Part shown: one piece after another, positions 16,503 to 41,213 of the stretch
Position numbering within the stretch: the first letter of the stretch is position 1
Layout of the letters: each line of letters begins with the position of its first letter
Source of the DNA: Escherichia phage vB_Eco_PATM
DNA: 64,000 bases
Sequence record: OX090893
Direction: 5' to 3' (one strand)
Notes under the pieces: model-generated
Told to the model about the DNA's origin: nothing
Database searches by the model: none
The model's input: the letters and a program-made list of their open reading frames with translations, nothing else
Made by a program: the position numbers and the translations under genes

Positions 16503-16780
16503 TACTTATTCCTTTTGTTGTTGATCACATCTAAAGCTGTGTAAGGCTTGTTTGTACCGCTGTATTCAAGAATAATTGGTACATATTCACAGACCAACTC
16601 AAAAGTACCATACACAGAATCTGCAACTGAAATAAGCATTTCAGTGCCTTCGTCGTTCTTAATTAATGAAAATCTTGCCCCTGGTTTATTGAGCACTTCA
16701 TATTTCTTACCTGCTGTCAGCAAACCTGAATACCATTCATTTTGCACAACAGACAAACACTTCAGATATGTTTTTCTCAT
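16502..16780 (-). CDS. Hypothetical protein (92 aa)
   Basis: ORF in early block. Confidence 0.4.
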   Translation of the reverse strand: MRKTYLKCLSVVQNEWYSGLLTAGKKYEVLNKPGARFSLIKNDEGTEMLISVADSVYGTFELVCEYVPIILEYSGTNKPYTALDVINNKRNK

Positions 16781-17118
16781 TTCTTTTTGCTCCTTCTTTT
16801 AGGCTTCTCGTATAAACCTAACACAGCCGATTCTTTTGCACAAATAGGAACTGACTTCATTCCTCGTTTTTTAGCTTCTGGTAGATTCAAAACCCACCAG
16901 CCAAACCAGTACAATTCATCCTCTGTAAAAGGATCTGCCATAGGATCTGCATCACGTTCTTCAAATTTAGCAAGAGCTTCTTCTATCTTTTCTATTGGAG
17001 TATCAAAGACAAAAGCCTCTGTGTCAAATTTTTGTTTCTTAGGAGCGGCTTTTGCCGCCCCATCTTTAGATGCGTGCTTTGTTACGGATCGCTTCTTCGG
17101 TGTTTTCGCCATCAACAA
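16777..17118 (-). CDS. Hypothetical basic protein (113 aa, Lys-rich termini)
   Basis: KKRSVTKHASKDGAAKAAPKKQK N-terminus and KPKRRSKKK C-terminus suggest nucleic-acid binding. Confidence 0.4.
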   Translation of the reverse strand: MLMAKTPKKRSVTKHASKDGAAKAAPKKQKFDTEAFVFDTPIEKIEEALAKFEERDADPMADPFTEDELYWFGWWVLNLPEAKKRGMKSVPICAKESAVLGLYEKPKRRSKKK

Positions 17119-17305
17119 CCTCCATGCGGTGTAAGAAATCTTGCTGGAATCGCCAATACTGTTGACCAGTCCTTACATCTTCGTAGATCACAACAGGATC
17201 AAATACTTTAGCTACACCTGCTGGTTTAGGGAAGCCAACTACACGATATAAACCACCTTTGCTAATACAAGAATATGTTACATCAGTTAAAATTTCTTTT
17301 TTCAT
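17066..17305 (-). CDS. Hypothetical small protein (79 aa)
   Basis: ORF in early block. Confidence 0.35.
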   Translation of the reverse strand: MKKEILTDVTYSCISKGGLYRVVGFPKPAGVAKVFDPVVIYEDVRTGQQYWRFQQDFLHRMEVVDGENTEEAIRNKARI

Positions 17306-36380: not shown

Positions 36381-36400
36381 AGTTTCTAACAGGAGCATAA

Positions 36401-37807
36401 ATGGCAACTTTTCGTGATAAGGTAGTTTCCGTAACCCTTACCTACGGTGCTACTTCAATTAGTGAAACACAGTTTGATATCCCTCTAATTCTTACAGGGC
36501 ATAACGTTACTGGCAATCTTGTAGATTATTTCACTTCTTCAGACGCACTTCTGCAAGCAGGTTTTGGCACTGCCGATCCAGCTTATAAAATGGCAAAACT
36601 ACTATTTGACGGTCTGTTCGCACCAGAACAAGTTATCGTCGGTAAGCGTGATGTTTCTAAAACAACTCTAACTCCAGTAGTTGAAGATAGTGCAACTTAC
36701 GTTATCACTATTAAAGCAAATTCAAAAAGCAAGGACTTCAAGTTTGTTGCCGATGATACTGCAACTGCTCAAGAGATTGTTGTTGGTTTAACAGAAATGA
36801 TCAACGCAGACATGGTGTATAAAGAATTCTTCACTGTGTCAAACGATGGTAGTGTTATCACTGTAACCCCAGTTGCAGGTAAATACGCTACTATGGATAG
36901 TTCAGGATTCACAACTAAAGTAGAATATGCAAATGATATCTTAGAAGATATTGCTAAAATTGCAGATTATGAAAACAGTTGGTTCTGGTTACTATCTGAT
37001 TCTCACGCAGAACAAGATATTATCGATCTAGCAGGTTATGTAGAAGAGCACGATAAAGTGTATTTCTTCTCTACCTCGCAACCAGGTGTTCTAACTAAAC
37101 AAGAAGATAACATTCTAGAACGCTTAGGTGATATGGGCTACAATAACACTTGTATGGCATTGTGGATGACTAACGCTGATACAGTGTTCCCAGAAGCTGC
37201 TGTAGTTGGTTCTATCTGCTCTGCAACACCAGGTACTACTACCCTGCATGGTAAAACCCTTGTTGGTATCGAGATTGAAAAACTTGGTCAGACAGCAGAA
37301 AACTTTATCGTTCAACAGAATGGTAATATTTACCGTAAAGAACACGGTGTTCTGTTCTACCGTGATGGTTTCATGGTTAGTGGTTTCTATGTTGACTATG
37401 TGGTACACGCTCTGTGGTTCAAAGCTCGCGTAGAAGAATCTCTGTTCGCTCTATTTAAACAGCAATCTATGCTTGGTAGTGGTGTTAGAGCAACTTCTGC
37501 TGGTCTTGCTTTGATTCGTCAGGCTGTTACTGCAAACCCAATCCAAGTAGGTATTAACAATGGTTCTATTGCCAATGAGGTAGTAACTTCAGAGGAAACA
37601 GGACTTCTGGTAAGCCTTAAACCTACTATCTATATCCCATCTCGTGCAGATATGACTGATGCTCAAATCAATGCACGTTTGGTTGATGGTATGGTTATTG
37701 AATACGTATATGCTGGATTCTTCCACTATGTTAAAGTGCAGGTAAACGTTCTGACGAACCGCACTGCAAATAGCCAGAATTCCAATAGCTCTACTGTATC
37801 TTCATAA
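36401..37807 (+). CDS. Tail sheath protein
   Basis: 468 aa ORF directly upstream of a 159 aa tube-sized ORF; size and order typical of contractile-tail sheath. Confidence 0.6.
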   Translation: MATFRDKVVSVTLTYGATSISETQFDIPLILTGHNVTGNLVDYFTSSDALLQAGFGTADPAYKMAKLLFDGLFAPEQVIVGKRDVSKTTLTPVVEDSATYVITIKANSKSKDFKFVADDTATAQEIVVGLTEMINADMVYKEFFTVSNDGSVITVTPVAGKYATMDSSGFTTKVEYANDILEDIAKIADYENSWFWLLSDSHAEQDIIDLAGYVEEHDKVYFFSTSQPGVLTKQEDNILERLGDMGYNNTCMALWMTNADTVFPEAAVVGSICSATPGTTTLHGKTLVGIEIEKLGQTAENFIVQQNGNIYRKEHGVLFYRDGFMVSGFYVDYVVHALWFKARVEESLFALFKQQSMLGSGVRATSAGLALIRQAVTANPIQVGINNGSIANEVVTSEETGLLVSLKPTIYIPSRADMTDAQINARLVDGMVIEYVYAGFFHYVKVQVNVLTNRTANSQNSNSSTVSS

Positions 37808-37814
37808 TTAAAAG

Positions 37815-37838
37815 CAGCGGGGGAAACCCCGCTTATAT
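37815..37838 (+). terminator. Hairpin, possible weak terminator
   Basis: GCGGGG-GAAA-CCCCGC stem-loop followed by TTATAT. Confidence 0.35.
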
Positions 37839-37865
37839 GAAAAGTAGTATAAAAGGAGATCCACT

Positions 37866-38345
37866 TTGGATAAAATGCTTACTGGCGTAATGGCCTATGA
37901 TCCTTCTCAAGTAATCCTGTCTTTGGGTGGTTGGGAACCTTGGGGTTTCGCCGCAGATACCAAAATTGTTATTAACAAAACTAACGATATCATCAACCCA
38001 TATTCAGGTACTGATGGTGACGTTTCCTTGGCGCTTAGTCGTAACCGTTTAGGTACGCTAACAATGTCACTGCAACGTACTTCCCCAGCAAACGAAGTTC
38101 TTGCTGCTTATGCACAAACGATGTATTCTACTCGTCAAGTAGCATTTAGCGTATATCTGGAAGACCCTCGCGGATATTATATCAGCACAATTGGTTGGAT
38201 TCAAAGCCAACCGGACGATACTATTGGTGAAACTATTCAAGAAAACCAATGGGTAATTGGTCTTAAAGATGCAAGCCTACTTCGTTCTACTGTAGGTGTT
38301 GGTGTTAACGCACTTAACTCTATTAGTGCTCTAACTATTCAGTAA
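37866..38345 (+). CDS. Tail tube protein
   Basis: 159 aa ORF following the sheath gene; terminator downstream. Confidence 0.55.
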   Translation: MDKMLTGVMAYDPSQVILSLGGWEPWGFAADTKIVINKTNDIINPYSGTDGDVSLALSRNRLGTLTMSLQRTSPANEVLAAYAQTMYSTRQVAFSVYLEDPRGYYISTIGWIQSQPDDTIGETIQENQWVIGLKDASLLRSTVGVGVNALNSISALTIQ

Positions 38346-38348
38346 TAA

Positions 38349-38375
38349 AAAGGGCAGAAATGCCCTTTATTTTTA
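38349..38375 (+). terminator. Rho-independent terminator
   Basis: AGGGCA-GAAA-TGCCCT hairpin followed by TTATTTTT. Confidence 0.6.
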
Positions 38376-38388
38376 AAGAGAGGAAATA

Positions 38389-38871
38389 ATGGAACAACAA
38401 AAAGATAATACTATTGCAAAATTTGCTCGTCCAGAAGTAATGGTTGAAATTGATCTGGATGAAGGACGCAGTGTAAAATTTAGAGTTCTCAAGTGGAGTC
38501 CAACTAAAGTTTTTGAAAGGATTCCAGAACTAGGTAGTGTACTGGCTGTTCCTATGACAATGTATAATACTGCTCTTATGTCAGCAGACGAAGATCTAGA
38601 AGCTCGTATTGCTATGGCGCTGATCCAGTTATTCAGTGGTCTGGAAGAAAAAAACTTAGCCGCATTCTTACGTAAAATTTTAGATGAAGTTTACACAGAA
38701 GCAGGACACAGTGTTTCCGATAATTTTGATGAATTGTTTTTTGCTCACCCAGAATTAGTTGTTGACTTAGCTGCAAAAGTTCTTGAGGTGAACTATGCCC
38801 CTTTTTTCAAACGAGGTTTCGGAAAACTGTTGACCCAATTTCAAGGAATAGAGACTCTAGCGAAGAGTTAA
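38389..38871 (+). CDS. Tail assembly chaperone (G-like), upstream frame
   Basis: 160 aa acidic ORF just upstream of the tape measure gene; contains a slippery heptamer near its 3' end. Confidence 0.5.
   Translation: MEQQKDNTIAKFARPEVMVEIDLDEGRSVKFRVLKWSPTKVFERIPELGSVLAVPMTMYNTALMSADEDLEARIAMALIQLFSGLEEKNLAAFLRKILDEVYTEAGHSVSDNFDELFFAHPELVVDLAAKVLEVNYAPFFKRGFGKLLTQFQGIETLAKS
38802..38808 (+). other. Candidate -1 programmed ribosomal frameshift site (T TTT TTC)
   Basis: Heptamer is in X-XXY-YYZ register of the 38389 ORF; the -1 frame is open from 38787 to 39146. Confidence 0.5.
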
Positions 38872-38918
38872 GTCCGGCAATTAAATCAGCAATTGAAATT
38901 GCCTCACAAACCCTTAGC

Positions 38919-39146
38919 TTGACATGGTATGAAGTAATTCTTTGTAAGGTAATTAAGAATACCTCCGAAACCTTGTCCTCGTTAGATAATTATGGTGTAG
39001 ATTATCTACTTAAAATTTATGAATATTTAACATTTGAAGACTATGTACAAGATCTTCACGTTAAAGATGCGGATATTAAACGTGGTCAACAGAGAACAAT
39101 AAGAGAACTGGATACGGCTATGAAAAAATTAATTCCAGATTCATAA
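38919..39146 (+). CDS. Downstream -1 frame ORF, probable C-terminal extension of a frameshifted chaperone (GT-like)
   Basis: 75 aa ORF from the track; its frame is the -1 frame of the upstream chaperone and overlaps that gene's last 85 nt without a stop. Confidence 0.4.
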   Translation: MTWYEVILCKVIKNTSETLSSLDNYGVDYLLKIYEYLTFEDYVQDLHVKDADIKRGQQRTIRELDTAMKKLIPDS

Positions 39147-39165
39147 GTAATACGGAGGATTACCC

Positions 39166-41145
39166 TTGTTAGAAATTAACACTTCCAAGATTAAGAATAC
39201 AGTAACGTTTACTGTAGATAAAGACAGTTTAAAAAATACTAAAGACGCAATTAAAAACCTTAAAACTTTTACAGAATCTATTGAACCATCTTTAAATATG
39301 ACTAAAATGCGTCGTCAGTTTAAAAGTATGGAAGAGTATGCTAAAAGAATAAGGCAGCAAATGTCAGGTCTTGGCGGCGGTAATCCTCCACCAATCCCAC
39401 CAACCGGAGGTTCAAGTGGTGGTGGAAAAGGAGGAAGTGGCAGAGGTGGTTCTGGATCTTCTGGAGGACGTAAAACACCAGAGGAAAGAGCCGCAGAAGC
39501 CGCCGCTAAACGTGCAGCACTTGCTAATATGAAGCAAGACGATTTTAGTTTTAAAGCTATGCCTTTTACAAAAGCAGACAGCAGAATTCTAGAAAAATCT
39601 AAAAAGATTGTAGAAGAAACTGTTGAACTTTATCGTAAAGGCGTGATTACTAGCCAACAAATGAACAATACTTTGGCTAGACAGTTAGAAGAACTACGCA
39701 GATCTCATAAAGAGAAGAATGCACAACTTCTTGATGAAGAGAGAGCTAGACGTAGAATTGCCCGTCTGCAAGAAGCAGAAGATAAAAGAAGACAGCGTGT
39801 TCGAGAAAGAGAAAGAAAGGAGTTCGAACGTCAGCAAAGGCGAGAAAAAGAAGCAAGACAGCGAGATAGACAACGTAAGCTATCTGGTGTAGGTAATGCT
39901 GCTATTGCTCTTAACCCTGCTATGTTTGGTGCTGCTCTTTTAGGTGCTGGTTTATATCAAGGTATAAGTAAAATAGCTGAAAGCATCACAACTGCGGCAG
40001 AACGTATTAATATGGTTAGTAAAGGTGGTCAGAACGTACAGGTAAACCCTAATGCAATTTTAACAATGCGTACTTGGGGTGAGATGAACGGTGTAGACTC
40101 TGCCAGCATTATTAAAGCCATTGACAATATTAAAGACGTTCGTGAACGTTTAGGTAATACTGTACTCCACTCTGAATTTGACGAAAAATCAGGTAAATGG
40201 AAAGGTGGAGATAGTGGTATTAATGAAATCATGAACCAATTTGGTTGGTCGAAAGAAGATGTTGCTAAATTCCAGAACAGACCTTTAGACTTTGTTCAAG
40301 CACTTGTTAATGAAGGTCAAAAAAGAGGAATGAACTCTGCGCAAATTGGTCGTTTGATGGAAAACCTTGGTGATGACTTAATGCACTACCAACGTATGTT
40401 TTTGGATAACGGTAAAGAGTACATGAAAGTCTTGGATATGTTAAAAAATTCAGGAGCCACTCTTAACGATGAAAACATCAAAGCAGCACAAGATTTTGTT
40501 AAGCTAAGAGCACAAATTAGTGCAGCAGGAGAAGGTTTTACCAATAACTTACTTATAGGATTTATGGATGGTTTAAAATCTGCACCAGATTTTGCAGAGA
40601 ATATGAAAACTTTCCAAGAAGCTGCTCGTGGTCTTGGTGAAATGTCTGGTAGTATTGTAAGTAGCCTTGCAAAAATTGCGAAATATTTCCTTGATTTTTC
40701 AAATAAGGTTGGGCCAAAAAACAATACTAAAGAAGCTGTAAGAGATTATTATAATGGTACGCAGTATGGGTACGATGCACAGGTTGGTGGTAATCCTTGG
40801 GCTTATTGGCCTATTGGAAGAGATCAATATAAACCTGAAAATCAACCTTTAGGTGACTTTGATAGTAGTTTCTTAACTAGTGCCTTAAACCCAAGTGCTT
40901 CTAGTATCGGTTACAATAGACCTGATTTAACAGCATCTATGCTAACACCACGCCAAGGTGTTCCAGTACCGTTAAGTGTAGAGAATACGGTTGTTATCCC
41001 AGACAACGCATTCCAGATTAATGTTATTCCAGATGGCTATGGTTTTAGTAATTACCTAGATGCGACAATGAATACCAGTTTTAGTAACTTCTCACAAGGT
41101 TTAACTCTTCAGTTAAGCAGTGGACAATCTTCTACTGGTGGTTAA
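39166..41145 (+). CDS. Tail tape measure protein (TTG start)
   Basis: 659 aa; Gly-rich low-complexity region, Arg/Glu-rich helical repeats, long helical body; follows the chaperone pair. Confidence 0.65.
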   Translation: MLEINTSKIKNTVTFTVDKDSLKNTKDAIKNLKTFTESIEPSLNMTKMRRQFKSMEEYAKRIRQQMSGLGGGNPPPIPPTGGSSGGGKGGSGRGGSGSSGGRKTPEERAAEAAAKRAALANMKQDDFSFKAMPFTKADSRILEKSKKIVEETVELYRKGVITSQQMNNTLARQLEELRRSHKEKNAQLLDEERARRRIARLQEAEDKRRQRVRERERKEFERQQRREKEARQRDRQRKLSGVGNAAIALNPAMFGAALLGAGLYQGISKIAESITTAAERINMVSKGGQNVQVNPNAILTMRTWGEMNGVDSASIIKAIDNIKDVRERLGNTVLHSEFDEKSGKWKGGDSGINEIMNQFGWSKEDVAKFQNRPLDFVQALVNEGQKRGMNSAQIGRLMENLGDDLMHYQRMFLDNGKEYMKVLDMLKNSGATLNDENIKAAQDFVKLRAQISAAGEGFTNNLLIGFMDGLKSAPDFAENMKTFQEAARGLGEMSGSIVSSLAKIAKYFLDFSNKVGPKNNTKEAVRDYYNGTQYGYDAQVGGNPWAYWPIGRDQYKPENQPLGDFDSSFLTSALNPSASSIGYNRPDLTASMLTPRQGVPVPLSVENTVVIPDNAFQINVIPDGYGFSNYLDATMNTSFSNFSQGLTLQLSSGQSSTGG

Positions 41146-41150
41146 TGCAT

Positions 41151-41180
41151 AAAGCCTCGCTTCGGCGGGGCTTTTTATTT
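41151..41180 (+). terminator. Rho-independent terminator
   Basis: AGCCTCGC-TTCG-GCGGGGCT hairpin followed by TTTTTATTT. Confidence 0.65.
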
Positions 41181-41183
41181 GTC

Positions 41184-41213
41184 TTGACAAAGAGTTGTTT
41201 TTCGTGATAAAAT
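41184..41213 (+). promoter_or_regulatory. Sigma70-like promoter (TTGACA-18-TAAAAT)
   Basis: Hexamers immediately after the terminator. Confidence 0.5.

What the first reader, a model, noticed from the sequence alone, without database searches (positions are those of the whole stretch)
38787..38871. Candidate -1 programmed frameshift (T TTT TTC) joining the two tail assembly chaperone ORFs
The slippery heptamer at 38802-38808 is in the correct X-XXY-YYZ register of the upstream chaperone gene. The -1 frame stays open from 38787 through the next ORF to 39146, so a shift would give a G-GT-type fusion, as usual just before a tape measure gene. The site lies about 66 nt before the upstream stop.
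Basis: partly seen in the sequence, partly recalled or inferred. Interest (0 to 1): 0.45.

Follow-up and report, generated by a model that had tools for sequence, protein, structure and literature searches.

The report
Tail chaperone -1 frameshift site
This phi92-like E. coli phage almost certainly makes a long form of its tail assembly chaperone by letting a few ribosomes slip back one base on CCCTTTTTTC. This is the well-known lambda G/GT trick, not annotated in any of the related public genome records I opened.

Summary
T_TTT_TTC (38802-38808) lies in X_XXY_YYZ register in the tail assembly chaperone gene (38389-38871, Pfam Phage_TAC_15). A second in-register heptamer, C_CCT_TTT (38799-38805), overlaps it. 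The -1 frame is open from 38787 to 39146 and ends 20 nt before the tape measure gene.

The heptamer alone is common: 82 in-register ones in the window. What is unique is its 112-codon open -1 frame, against a median of 5.

All 59 related loci examined keep an in-register heptamer at this position, down to 22% chaperone identity. All keep an open -1 frame of 92+ (cut by a contig end) to 128 codons. Across 34 unique genes, third-codon bases are saturated elsewhere but invariant at the three slip-site codons.

The stretch 38871-38918 evolves as -1 frame coding sequence, yet no start codon precedes it. No conserved start exists anywhere in the downstream ORF.

No conserved downstream RNA structure was found. 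An SD-like GAGG 10-13 nt upstream may stimulate slipping.

Verdict: a programmed -1 ribosomal frameshift of the G/GT type. It is a new member of a known kind, unannotated in every public record I opened. There is no protein-level proof.

The parts
38389..38871 (+). Tail assembly chaperone gene, short form (160 aa; phi92 gp132 homologue). This is the 0 frame.
   Evidence: Pfam PF21822 Phage_TAC_15 at 80.8 bits (cut-off 22), E = 1.6e-22. phrog_3840 tail assembly chaperone, E = 4.4e-54. It lies between the tube gene 37866-38345 and the tape measure gene.
38785..38790 (+). SD-like GAGGTG, a candidate upstream stimulator. GAGG ends 10 nt before C_CCT_TTT and 13 nt before T_TTT_TTC.
   Evidence: A GAGG or GGAG core sits at this position in 22 of 30 unique contexts. 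Glu133 is GAG in 27 of 34 unique genes, including every proline-type (CCT TTT TTC) context, although structural genes of this window use GAA for 82% of Glu codons. It is lost in phiTE-like and some other lineages, and it also encodes a conserved Glu-Val. The result is inconclusive.
38799..38805 (+). Slippery heptamer 1, C_CCT_TTT, in X_XXY_YYZ register.
   Evidence: It is the only heptamer present in L046 and L051 (CCT TTT ACC / ATC). CCCUUUU gave 0.21% frameshifting without a stimulator in E. coli and up to 11.7% with the IS3 pseudoknot (PMC4066793 supplement).
38802..38808 (+). Slippery heptamer 2, T_TTT_TTC, in register.
   Evidence: It is present in 44 of 46 IMG/VR loci and in all Vequintavirinae checked, as TGT TTT TTC. 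The third bases of codons 138, 139 and 140 are invariant in 34 unique genes. UUUUUUC gave 0.12% without a stimulator and 7.6% with the IS3 pseudoknot.
38808..38871 (+). Dual-coding overlap. It holds the last 21 codons of the short form plus its stop (0 frame) and the first 21 codons of the extension (-1 frame: QTRFRKTVDPISRNRDSSEEL).
   Evidence: Variability at -1 frame third positions falls to 0.32 here, against 0.61-0.67 outside the overlap. GGT TTC / (C/A)GG TTT is invariant or nearly so, and the RF(R/V) motif is conserved in the -1 frame. AlphaFold2 predicts this part of the extension as a disordered linker.
38872..38918 (+). Stretch treated as intergenic in public annotations. It is in fact -1 frame coding sequence and encodes the first predicted helix of the C-terminal domain.
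   Evidence: Pairwise differences at codon positions 1, 2 and 3 are 0.40, 0.33 and 0.67 for window codons 38871-38918, the same pattern as the called ORF at 0.41, 0.29 and 0.61. There is no ATG, GTG or TTG in this frame from 38787 to 38918. Predicted helix 23-36 of the extension maps here.
38919..39146 (+). phi92 gp133-like small ORF. It is the rest of the -1 frame C-terminal domain of the long form; TAA at 39144-39146.
   Evidence: phrog_16039, E = 3.2e-45. The only ATG is 9 codons from its end; the first TTG (38919) has no SD. Gene callers start the homologues at six or more different alignment columns. All 17 database homologues are 64-84 aa.
39166..41145 (+). Tape measure protein gene, the expected client of the chaperone. 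Its own SD, GGAGGA, lies at 39154-39159.
   Evidence: phrog_16051 tail length tape measure protein, E = 0, full length; sequence read.

Best explanation
This is a programmed -1 ribosomal frameshift of the lambda G/GT (P2 E/E+E') type. Most ribosomes translating the chaperone gene stop at 38871 and make the 160-aa short form. A minority slip back one nucleotide on C CCU UUU UUC, where tRNA-Pro/tRNA-Phe or tRNA-Phe/tRNA-Phe re-pair in the -1 frame. They then read on to 39146 and make a 252-aa long form: residues 1-140 of the chaperone, a roughly 20-residue linker, and a helical C-terminal domain.

Shown here: the signal, its register, its conservation, and coding constraint in the -1 frame with no start codon.

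Inferred from the lambda and P2 systems: both forms coat the tape measure protein through the shared N-terminal part. The extra domain of the rare long form recruits the tube protein, so a fixed short:long ratio is set by slip frequency.

The slip frequency is unknown. No conserved downstream structure exists. The tandem heptamers and an SD-like GAGG 10-13 nt upstream are the only candidate enhancers.
For: 1. Register and open frame.

2. Gene context is sheath, tube, chaperone, small ORF, tape measure protein. The chaperone passes the Pfam Phage_TAC_15 cut-off.

3. All 59 related loci keep an in-register heptamer at the homologous codons and a -1 frame open for 92+ (cut by a contig end) to 128 codons, ending just before the tape measure gene in the annotated loci. 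They span Stephanstirmvirinae, Vequintavirinae and unclassified contigs. The heptamer is T_TTT_TTC in most, C_CCT_TTT alone in L046 and L051, and A_AAT_TTT in Vibrio phage S4-7.

4. In 34 unique genes and 142 codon columns, mean third-position diversity is 0.61. Only 5 columns are invariant at the third base: Trp36, codon 138 (CCT or TGT, so the amino acid differs but the T is kept), Phe139 (TTT in 34/34), codon 140 (xxC in 34/34) and Gly143 in the overlap. Other invariant Phe columns use TTT and TTC at about 40:60.

5. The stretch 38871-38918 shows a coding substitution pattern in the -1 frame, with no start codon upstream of it. The first in-frame start in relatives scatters from codon 28 to codon 83 of the extension, mostly without an SD.

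6. Only this site among 82 in-register heptamers in the window has a long -1 run.

7. Both heptamers belong to the best E. coli class, H_HH.U_UU.Y (PMC4066793).

8. A second T6 run at 38737-38742 is out of register and not conserved, which serves as an internal control.
Against: There is no protein or RNA evidence; everything is comparative.

In an E. coli reporter without stimulators these heptamers shift only 0.12% (UUUUUUC) and 0.21% (CCCUUUU). That is far below the roughly 1:30 ratio of lambda.

I found no significant or conserved downstream structure: z-scores were -0.29 and +0.85, and the RNAalifold consensus had 0-5 weak pairs.

The SD-like element is absent in 8 of 30 contexts and is confounded with a conserved Glu-Val.

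The sequences compared are phylogenetically related, so the invariance counts are not independent trials.

One of the two IMG/VR search patterns required the residues FF. That does not bias codon choice, but it does bias towards keeping the dipeptide.
Confidence: 0.88

Rival explanations
1. Transcriptional slippage. RNA polymerase adds one extra U in the T6 run (38802-38807), giving mRNAs that encode the same long form (...PFFQTR...) by standard translation.
For: A U6 to U7 insertion gives exactly the same protein as a -1 ribosomal shift (sequence). UUUUUUU and AAAAAAA are under-represented in E. coli genes in all frames, possibly because of such slippage (PMC4066793). All 32 unique genes that have the TTT TTC pair stop at T6 and never reach T7.
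Against: What is conserved is the reading-frame register, which is irrelevant to RNA polymerase. L046 and L051 have only a T4 run (CCC TTTT A) and Vibrio phage S4-7 has AAATTTT, yet they keep an in-register heptamer and the open -1 frame. From my own knowledge, known bacterial transcriptional slippage needs runs of about 8-9 or more. The window has 27 T6+ runs and 37 A6+ runs, including an unconserved one 65 nt upstream in the same gene.
Confidence: 0.05
2. There is no recoding. The small ORF is an independent gene (phi92 gp133) initiated at TTG 38919 or TTG 38973, as in public annotations, and the heptamer is incidental.
For: Public records annotate it this way: phi92 gp133 starts at the equivalent of 38919 and RefSeq PD06 at 38973. 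All 17 database homologues are called as 64-84 aa proteins.
Against: The only ATG is 9 codons from the end of the ORF and no SD precedes either TTG. Neither TTG position is conserved; it is Phe or Arg in relatives. In some relatives the first in-frame start is at codon 58-83 of an extension of 103-126 codons. The stretch upstream of every candidate start evolves as coding sequence and carries a predicted helix. Independent initiation also does not explain the invariant synonymous sites at the heptamer.
Confidence: 0.04
3. The long -1 frame and heptamer are remnants of a recently split gene, or of a sequencing error, and have no function.
For: None found. It was considered because a single-base indel in a T-run is a common sequencing error.
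Against: The same two-frame arrangement is present in 59 independently sequenced loci, including lineages with only 22-35% protein identity. The 0-frame tail after the site is itself conserved (KRGFGKLL / TKDGFA.L).
Confidence: 0.01

Closest known systems
Phage lambda gpG / gpGT -1 frameshift (Levin et al. 1993; Xu, Hendrix and Duda 2004, 2013, 2014; reviewed in PMC5009743)
   Same: Two overlapping ORFs lie between the major tail or tube gene and the tape measure gene. [quoted passage not shown] The -1 extension has no start of its own. No elaborate stimulatory structure is known. By analogy, neither product is expected in virions.
   Different: The heptamer is G_GGA_AAG in lambda and the tandem C_CCT_TTT / T_TTT_TTC here. 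Lambda has a non-contractile tail and this phage a contractile one. No sequence similarity between the proteins was detected: the chaperone matches a different Pfam family (Phage_TAC_15), and the extension has no Pfam or PDB match. The efficiency here is unknown; lambda is about 1:30.
Phage P2 gpE / gpE+E' (contractile-tail example; Christie et al. 2002, recalled from my own knowledge; P2 efficiency is 2-3 fold above lambda per PMC5009743)
   Same: It is a myovirus with a T-rich heptamer (T_TTT_TTG in P2, from memory) near the end of the chaperone gene, upstream of the tape measure gene.
   Different: The last base differs (G versus C). P2 has a single heptamer. The protein families are unrelated as far as tested. 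This comparison was not tested with tools here.
Proposed -1 frameshift with an invariant GTTTTT motif in the chaperone genes of Vandenendeviridae (Pakpunavirus) and Andersonviridae (PMC12846349, Dec 2025)
   Same: The logic and evidence type match: the -1 frame is open in every genome, the T-run is conserved near the 3' end, and the downstream piece is mis-annotated as a hypothetical protein. The Vequintavirinae relatives examined here have TGT TTT TTC, which contains GTTTTT. That paper regards Vequintavirinae and Stephanstirmvirinae as related clades.
   Different: In the passages I read, that paper reports the frameshift analysis only for Vandenendeviridae and Andersonviridae. In phi92-like phages the preceding codon is CCT rather than xGT, which creates a second overlapping heptamer.
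T4-like phage tail assembly chaperones (Vladimirov, Gautam and Davidson 2022, as summarised in PMC10885494)
   Same: A large lytic myovirus needs a short and a long chaperone form.
   Different: Some T4-like phages are reported to carry separate short and fused long genes instead of frameshifting. Here a single locus holds two frames and a slip site.
IS911 and dnaX -1 frameshift signals with an upstream SD-like stimulator
   Same: An SD-like GAGG lies 10-13 nt upstream of the slip site, within the spacing I recall as stimulatory for -1 shifts. The IS911 stimulators raise CCCUUUU from 0.21% to 3.0% and UUUUUUC from 0.12% to 0.89%.
   Different: There is no downstream hairpin partner here. The SD-like element is not universal among relatives and is confounded with coding.

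Membership tests
G/GT-type tail assembly chaperone -1 programmed frameshift (Xu, Hendrix and Duda 2004) | Two ORFs in different frames lie directly between the major tail or tube gene and the tape measure gene. | tested here: met
   Tube 37866-38345, chaperone 38389-38871, -1 ORF to 39146, tape measure gene 39166-41145.
G/GT-type tail assembly chaperone -1 programmed frameshift (Xu, Hendrix and Duda 2004) | [quoted passage not shown] | tested here: met
   C_CCT_TTT at 38799-38805 and T_TTT_TTC at 38802-38808. The -1 frame is open from 38787, and the site is 22 codons before the stop.
G/GT-type tail assembly chaperone -1 programmed frameshift (Xu, Hendrix and Duda 2004) | The arrangement and slip site are conserved among relatives despite sequence divergence. 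| tested here: met
   59 of 59 loci. Third bases of the slip codons are invariant against a mean diversity of 0.61.
G/GT-type tail assembly chaperone -1 programmed frameshift (Xu, Hendrix and Duda 2004) | The downstream ORF has no translation start of its own and is coding upstream of any start. | tested here: met
   No start codon from 38787 to 38918. There is no conserved start or SD in relatives. The stretch 38871-38918 shows a coding substitution pattern.
G/GT-type tail assembly chaperone -1 programmed frameshift (Xu, Hendrix and Duda 2004) | A fusion protein is made at a low fixed ratio, and both forms are needed for tail assembly. | not testable with these tools
   This needs mass spectrometry, western blotting or genetics. 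The diagnostic tryptic peptides are VLEVNYAPFFQTR (long form) and VLEVNYAPFFK (short form).
Pfam PF21822 Phage_TAC_15 (tail assembly chaperone) | The whole-protein score exceeds the curated gathering cut-off. | tested here: met
   80.8 bits against a cut-off of 22, residues 29-144 against profile positions 3-123 of 127. phrog_3840, E = 4.4e-54.
Stimulated -1 frameshift signal (slippery site plus downstream hairpin or pseudoknot) | A stable, conserved RNA structure begins 5-9 nt downstream of the heptamer. | tested here: not met
   Minimum free energy z-scores of -0.29 and +0.85. RNAalifold on 13+13 relatives gave 5 weak distal pairs in one set and 0 pairs in the other. No Rfam family reached its threshold.
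Stimulated -1 frameshift signal (dnaX / IS911-type upstream SD) | An SD-like sequence about 10-14 nt upstream of the heptamer, conserved beyond coding needs. | tested here: inconclusive
   GAGGTG at 38785-38790. GAG is used at Glu133 although the genome uses GAA for 82% of Glu codons. The element is absent in 8 of 30 contexts.
Programmed transcriptional slippage | A long homopolymer run (about 8-9 nt or more in bacteria, from my own knowledge) is conserved irrespective of reading-frame register. | tested here: not met
   The run is T6 and never T7. L046 and L051 have T4 and S4-7 has A3T4, yet all keep heptamer register.

The most novel reading that the evidence does not exclude
The signal may be a stimulator-poor, tandem double slip site. 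Two overlapping heptamers (C_CCU_UUU and U_UUU_UUC) would give ribosomes two consecutive chances to shift. An upstream SD-like GAGG, selected against the genome's strong GAA preference, would replace the usual downstream structure. If so, this large clade of lytic myoviruses would set its chaperone ratio by a signal architecture not described for tail chaperone genes. The lineage-specific loss of one heptamer (L046 and L051 keep only C_CCU_UUU; Vequintavirinae keep only U_UUU_UUC) would show which half is sufficient.
Probability: 0.25. Interest if true: 0.45.

Novelty: new member of a known kind. Interest (0 to 1): 0.3.

Why it matters
The main value is correct annotation. phi92-like, phAPEC8-like and rV5-like phages are widely isolated as therapy candidates. 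The long chaperone form was not annotated in any of the 17 public records I opened. The -1 piece is either called as a 64-84 aa hypothetical protein with arbitrary starts or omitted.

Recognising the frameshift gives these genomes a complete tail-assembly gene set. It also extends the conserved G/GT rule to another large group of contractile-tail phages.

The conserved tandem heptamer without a downstream structure is a clean natural test case for how low-level frameshifting is tuned in E. coli.

Tried and rejected
- **Downstream stimulatory structure.** Single-sequence folds of 38809-38900 and 38780-38880 were no better than shuffles. RNAalifold on 13 Stephanstirmvirinae-like and 13 Vequintavirinae-like sequences gave essentially no consensus structure. 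A small hairpin directly after the site (AAAC-GAG-GTTT here, CGAAA-GACGG-TTTCG in Seunavirus) is too close to the site. It is broken in rV5 and phiTE, and is explained by dual coding of Gly-Phe / Arg-Phe-Arg.
- **Rfam scan of 38300-39300.** Only sub-threshold chance matches appeared.
- **Natural in-frame fusions or annotated long forms.** All 17 homologues of the extension are 64-84 aa.
- **PDB sequence searches.** Neither the chaperone nor the extension gave anything significant.
- **Structure of the extension.** The AlphaFold2 model has pLDDT 72, with a disordered first ~20 residues followed by helices. Foldseek against viral models matched only the phAPEC8 orthologue, so the C-terminal domain got no functional assignment.
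- **Other frameshift candidates in the window.** Heptamers at 16963 and 17026 with long -1 runs lie in a spurious antisense ORF.
- **Literature.** I found no paper in the searchable library linking phi92, phAPEC8 or Stephanstirmvirinae with this frameshift.

Full report
**What the window is.** The region 36400-41200 is 99% identical to many phi92-like E. coli phages (Justusliebigvirus, Stephanstirmvirinae, about 147 kb). The local gene order is:

- sheath, 36401-37807
- tube, 37866-38345
- a 160-aa ORF, 38389-38871
- a small ORF ending at 39146
- a 659-aa tape measure protein, 39166-41145

The 160-aa protein is a tail assembly chaperone. It scores 80.8 bits on Pfam Phage_TAC_15 against a cut-off of 22, and matches phrog_3840 at E = 4.4e-54.

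**Checking the observation.** The chaperone codons read ...AAC TAT GCC CCT TTT TTC AAA CGA.... T_TTT_TTC at 38802-38808 is therefore in X_XXY_YYZ register. The -1 frame has TGA at 38784-38786 and is then open to TAA at 39144-39146.

Both give the same product, ...VNYAPFF-QTRFRKTVDP....

**Is it more than chance?** The heptamer alone is not. I counted 82 in-register XXXYYYZ heptamers in 65 gene-like ORFs of the window. Their -1 frames run a median of 5 codons, and only this site exceeds 100. A -1 run of at least 112 codons starts at 0.4% of codons.

**Comparative evidence.**

- *GenBank relatives.* I fetched the locus from 13 phages: KP13-26, phAPEC8, 05F01, KP13-16, phiWec181, phi92, rV5, Av-05, SalP219, FENT2, phiTE, 4MG and pEa_SNUABM_55, plus Vibrio phage S4-7. 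I also fetched 46 IMG/VR contigs.
- *Every locus keeps the arrangement.* Each has an in-register heptamer at the homologous codons and a -1 frame open for 92+ (cut by a contig end) to 128 codons. In the annotated loci it ends just before the tape measure gene.
- *Heptamer variants.* Stephanstirmvirinae-like sequences have CCT TTT TTC, giving both heptamers. Vequintavirinae have TGT TTT TTC, giving only T_TTT_TTC. L046 and L051 have CCT TTT ACC/ATC, giving only C_CCT_TTT. S4-7 has A_AAT_TTT.
- *Synonymous sites.* In 34 unique chaperone genes, third-codon-position diversity averages 0.61 over 142 columns. It is zero at only five columns. These are Trp36, codon 138, Phe139, codon 140 and Gly143.
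  - At codon 138 the T is kept although the residue is Pro or Cys.
  - Phe139 is TTT in 34 of 34.
  - Codon 140 is xxC in 34 of 34.
  - Gly143 lies inside the overlap.
  - The other invariant Phe columns use TTT and TTC at about 40:60.
- *Internal control.* A second T6 run 65 nt upstream (38737-38742) is out of register and not conserved.

**The downstream ORF is not an independent gene.**

- In the window the -1 frame has no ATG, GTG or TTG between 38787 and 38918. The first TTG (38919) has no SD.
- In relatives the first in-frame start scatters between codons 28 and 83 of the extension, mostly without an SD.
- Gene callers start the homologues at six or more different alignment columns. Some records omit the ORF altogether.
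- The unannotated stretch 38871-38918 evolves like coding sequence in the -1 frame. Pairwise differences at positions 1, 2 and 3 are 0.40, 0.33 and 0.67, against 0.41, 0.29 and 0.61 in the called ORF.
- In the overlap, -1 frame third positions are constrained (0.32), as expected for dual coding.
- An AlphaFold2 model of the extension (pLDDT 72) has a disordered first ~20 residues. Helices then start at residue 23, which is upstream of any candidate start.

**Mechanism.** The best explanation is a -1 ribosomal frameshift giving a 252-aa long form alongside the 160-aa short form. The roles follow the lambda G/GT model. Both forms bind the tape measure protein, and the extra domain of the long form recruits the tube protein (PMC5009743). 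That functional part is inference by analogy.

Both heptamers belong to the most shift-prone E. coli class, H_HH.U_UU.Y (PMC4066793). In that study's reporter they gave only 0.12% (UUUUUUC) and 0.21% (CCCUUUU) without stimulators. With the IS911 stimulators they gave 0.9% and 3.0%, and with the IS3 pseudoknot 7.6% and 11.7%.

I found no conserved downstream structure. The only candidate enhancer is an SD-like GAGGTG at 38785-38790, with GAGG ending 10-13 nt upstream of the two heptamers. Its Glu codon is GAG in every proline-type (CCT TTT TTC) context and in 27 of 34 unique genes. This window's structural genes use GAA for 82% of Glu codons. The element is nonetheless missing in 8 of 30 contexts and overlaps a conserved Glu-Val. 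Its role is open, and so is the actual efficiency.

**Rival explanations.**

- *Transcriptional slippage* on the T6 run would give the same protein. Against it, the conserved feature is reading-frame register. Lineages with only T4 or A3T4 keep the arrangement, and the run is short.
- *Independent initiation* of gp133 is contradicted by the start-codon and coding-constraint results.
- *Sequencing error or a decaying gene* is excluded by 59 independent loci.

**Comparison with what is known.** This is the conserved tail assembly chaperone frameshift of Xu, Hendrix and Duda (2004). It is also known in contractile-tail phages such as P2. A December 2025 paper proposes the same for Vandenendeviridae and Andersonviridae, with an invariant GTTTTT motif. 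In the passages I read, it names Stephanstirmvirinae and Vequintavirinae only as related clades, without a frameshift analysis for them (PMC12846349).

None of the 17 public records I opened annotates a frameshift here. None of the 17 database homologues of the extension is a long form. I found no paper linking phi92 or phAPEC8 with it.

It is therefore a new, well-supported member of a known kind. The minor variations are a tandem heptamer and the absence of a downstream structure.

**Verdict.** The site is ordinary for a specialist. Its uses are re-annotation and a simple model for low-level frameshifting.

Noticed in passing
window 38649-38655: A further in-register heptamer, A_AAA_AAC, lies inside the chaperone gene. 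Its -1 frame stops after 6 codons, so a slip there would only truncate the protein. It is kept in phi92-like phages, is AAAAAAT in KP13-26, and is absent in phAPEC8.
   Followed up: partly
window 38737-38742: A second T6 run in the same gene (TTG TTT TTT GCT) is not in X_XXY_YYZ register, leads to the -1 frame stop at 38784, and is not conserved in relatives. It is a useful internal control for the conserved run at 38802-38807.
   Followed up: yes
window 38349-38368 and 41151-41174; promoter-like site 41184-41213: Terminator-like hairpins with T tracts lie between the tube and chaperone genes and just after the tape measure gene. A strong sigma-70-like site (11 of 12 matches, with TG) follows the second hairpin. 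The first hairpin would lower chaperone and tape measure expression relative to sheath and tube. phAPEC8 has an annotated putative terminator at the same place.
   Followed up: partly
GenBank MG065639, MG065645, MG065656, MG065689 and others: Records named 'Campylobacter phage' with host C. jejuni are 99.4% identical to this E. coli phi92-like tail region. Others match phAPEC8-like and rV5-like phages. The host labels look wrong, or the stocks were contaminated.
   Followed up: no
L046 1833-1839, L051 1833-1839, L017 (Vibrio phage S4-7) 1203-1209: These are lineage-specific slip-site variants. Two IMG/VR contigs keep only C_CCT_TTT because the second Phe is replaced by Thr or Ile. S4-7 uses A_AAT_TTT. 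All keep the long open -1 frame.
   Followed up: partly
window 16742-17134 (+): Two in-register heptamers (16963, 17026) with -1 runs of 80 and 59 codons appeared in my window-wide scan. The ORF is a low-complexity antisense artefact, and the real genes there are on the minus strand. It is not a frameshift candidate.
   Followed up: yes
window 38346-38471 (-): A sub-threshold Rfam match to SraG sRNA (36.3 bits against a gathering score of 50, E = 2.6e-4) overlaps the terminator-like hairpin and the start of the chaperone gene. It is probably a chance or hairpin-driven match.
   Followed up: no
window 38919 / 38973 and homologues P0001-P0017: Public gene calls for the gp133-like ORF begin at six or more different alignment columns and use TTG or ATG inconsistently. 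Several records omit the ORF and leave a gap of about 290 nt before the tape measure gene.
   Followed up: yes
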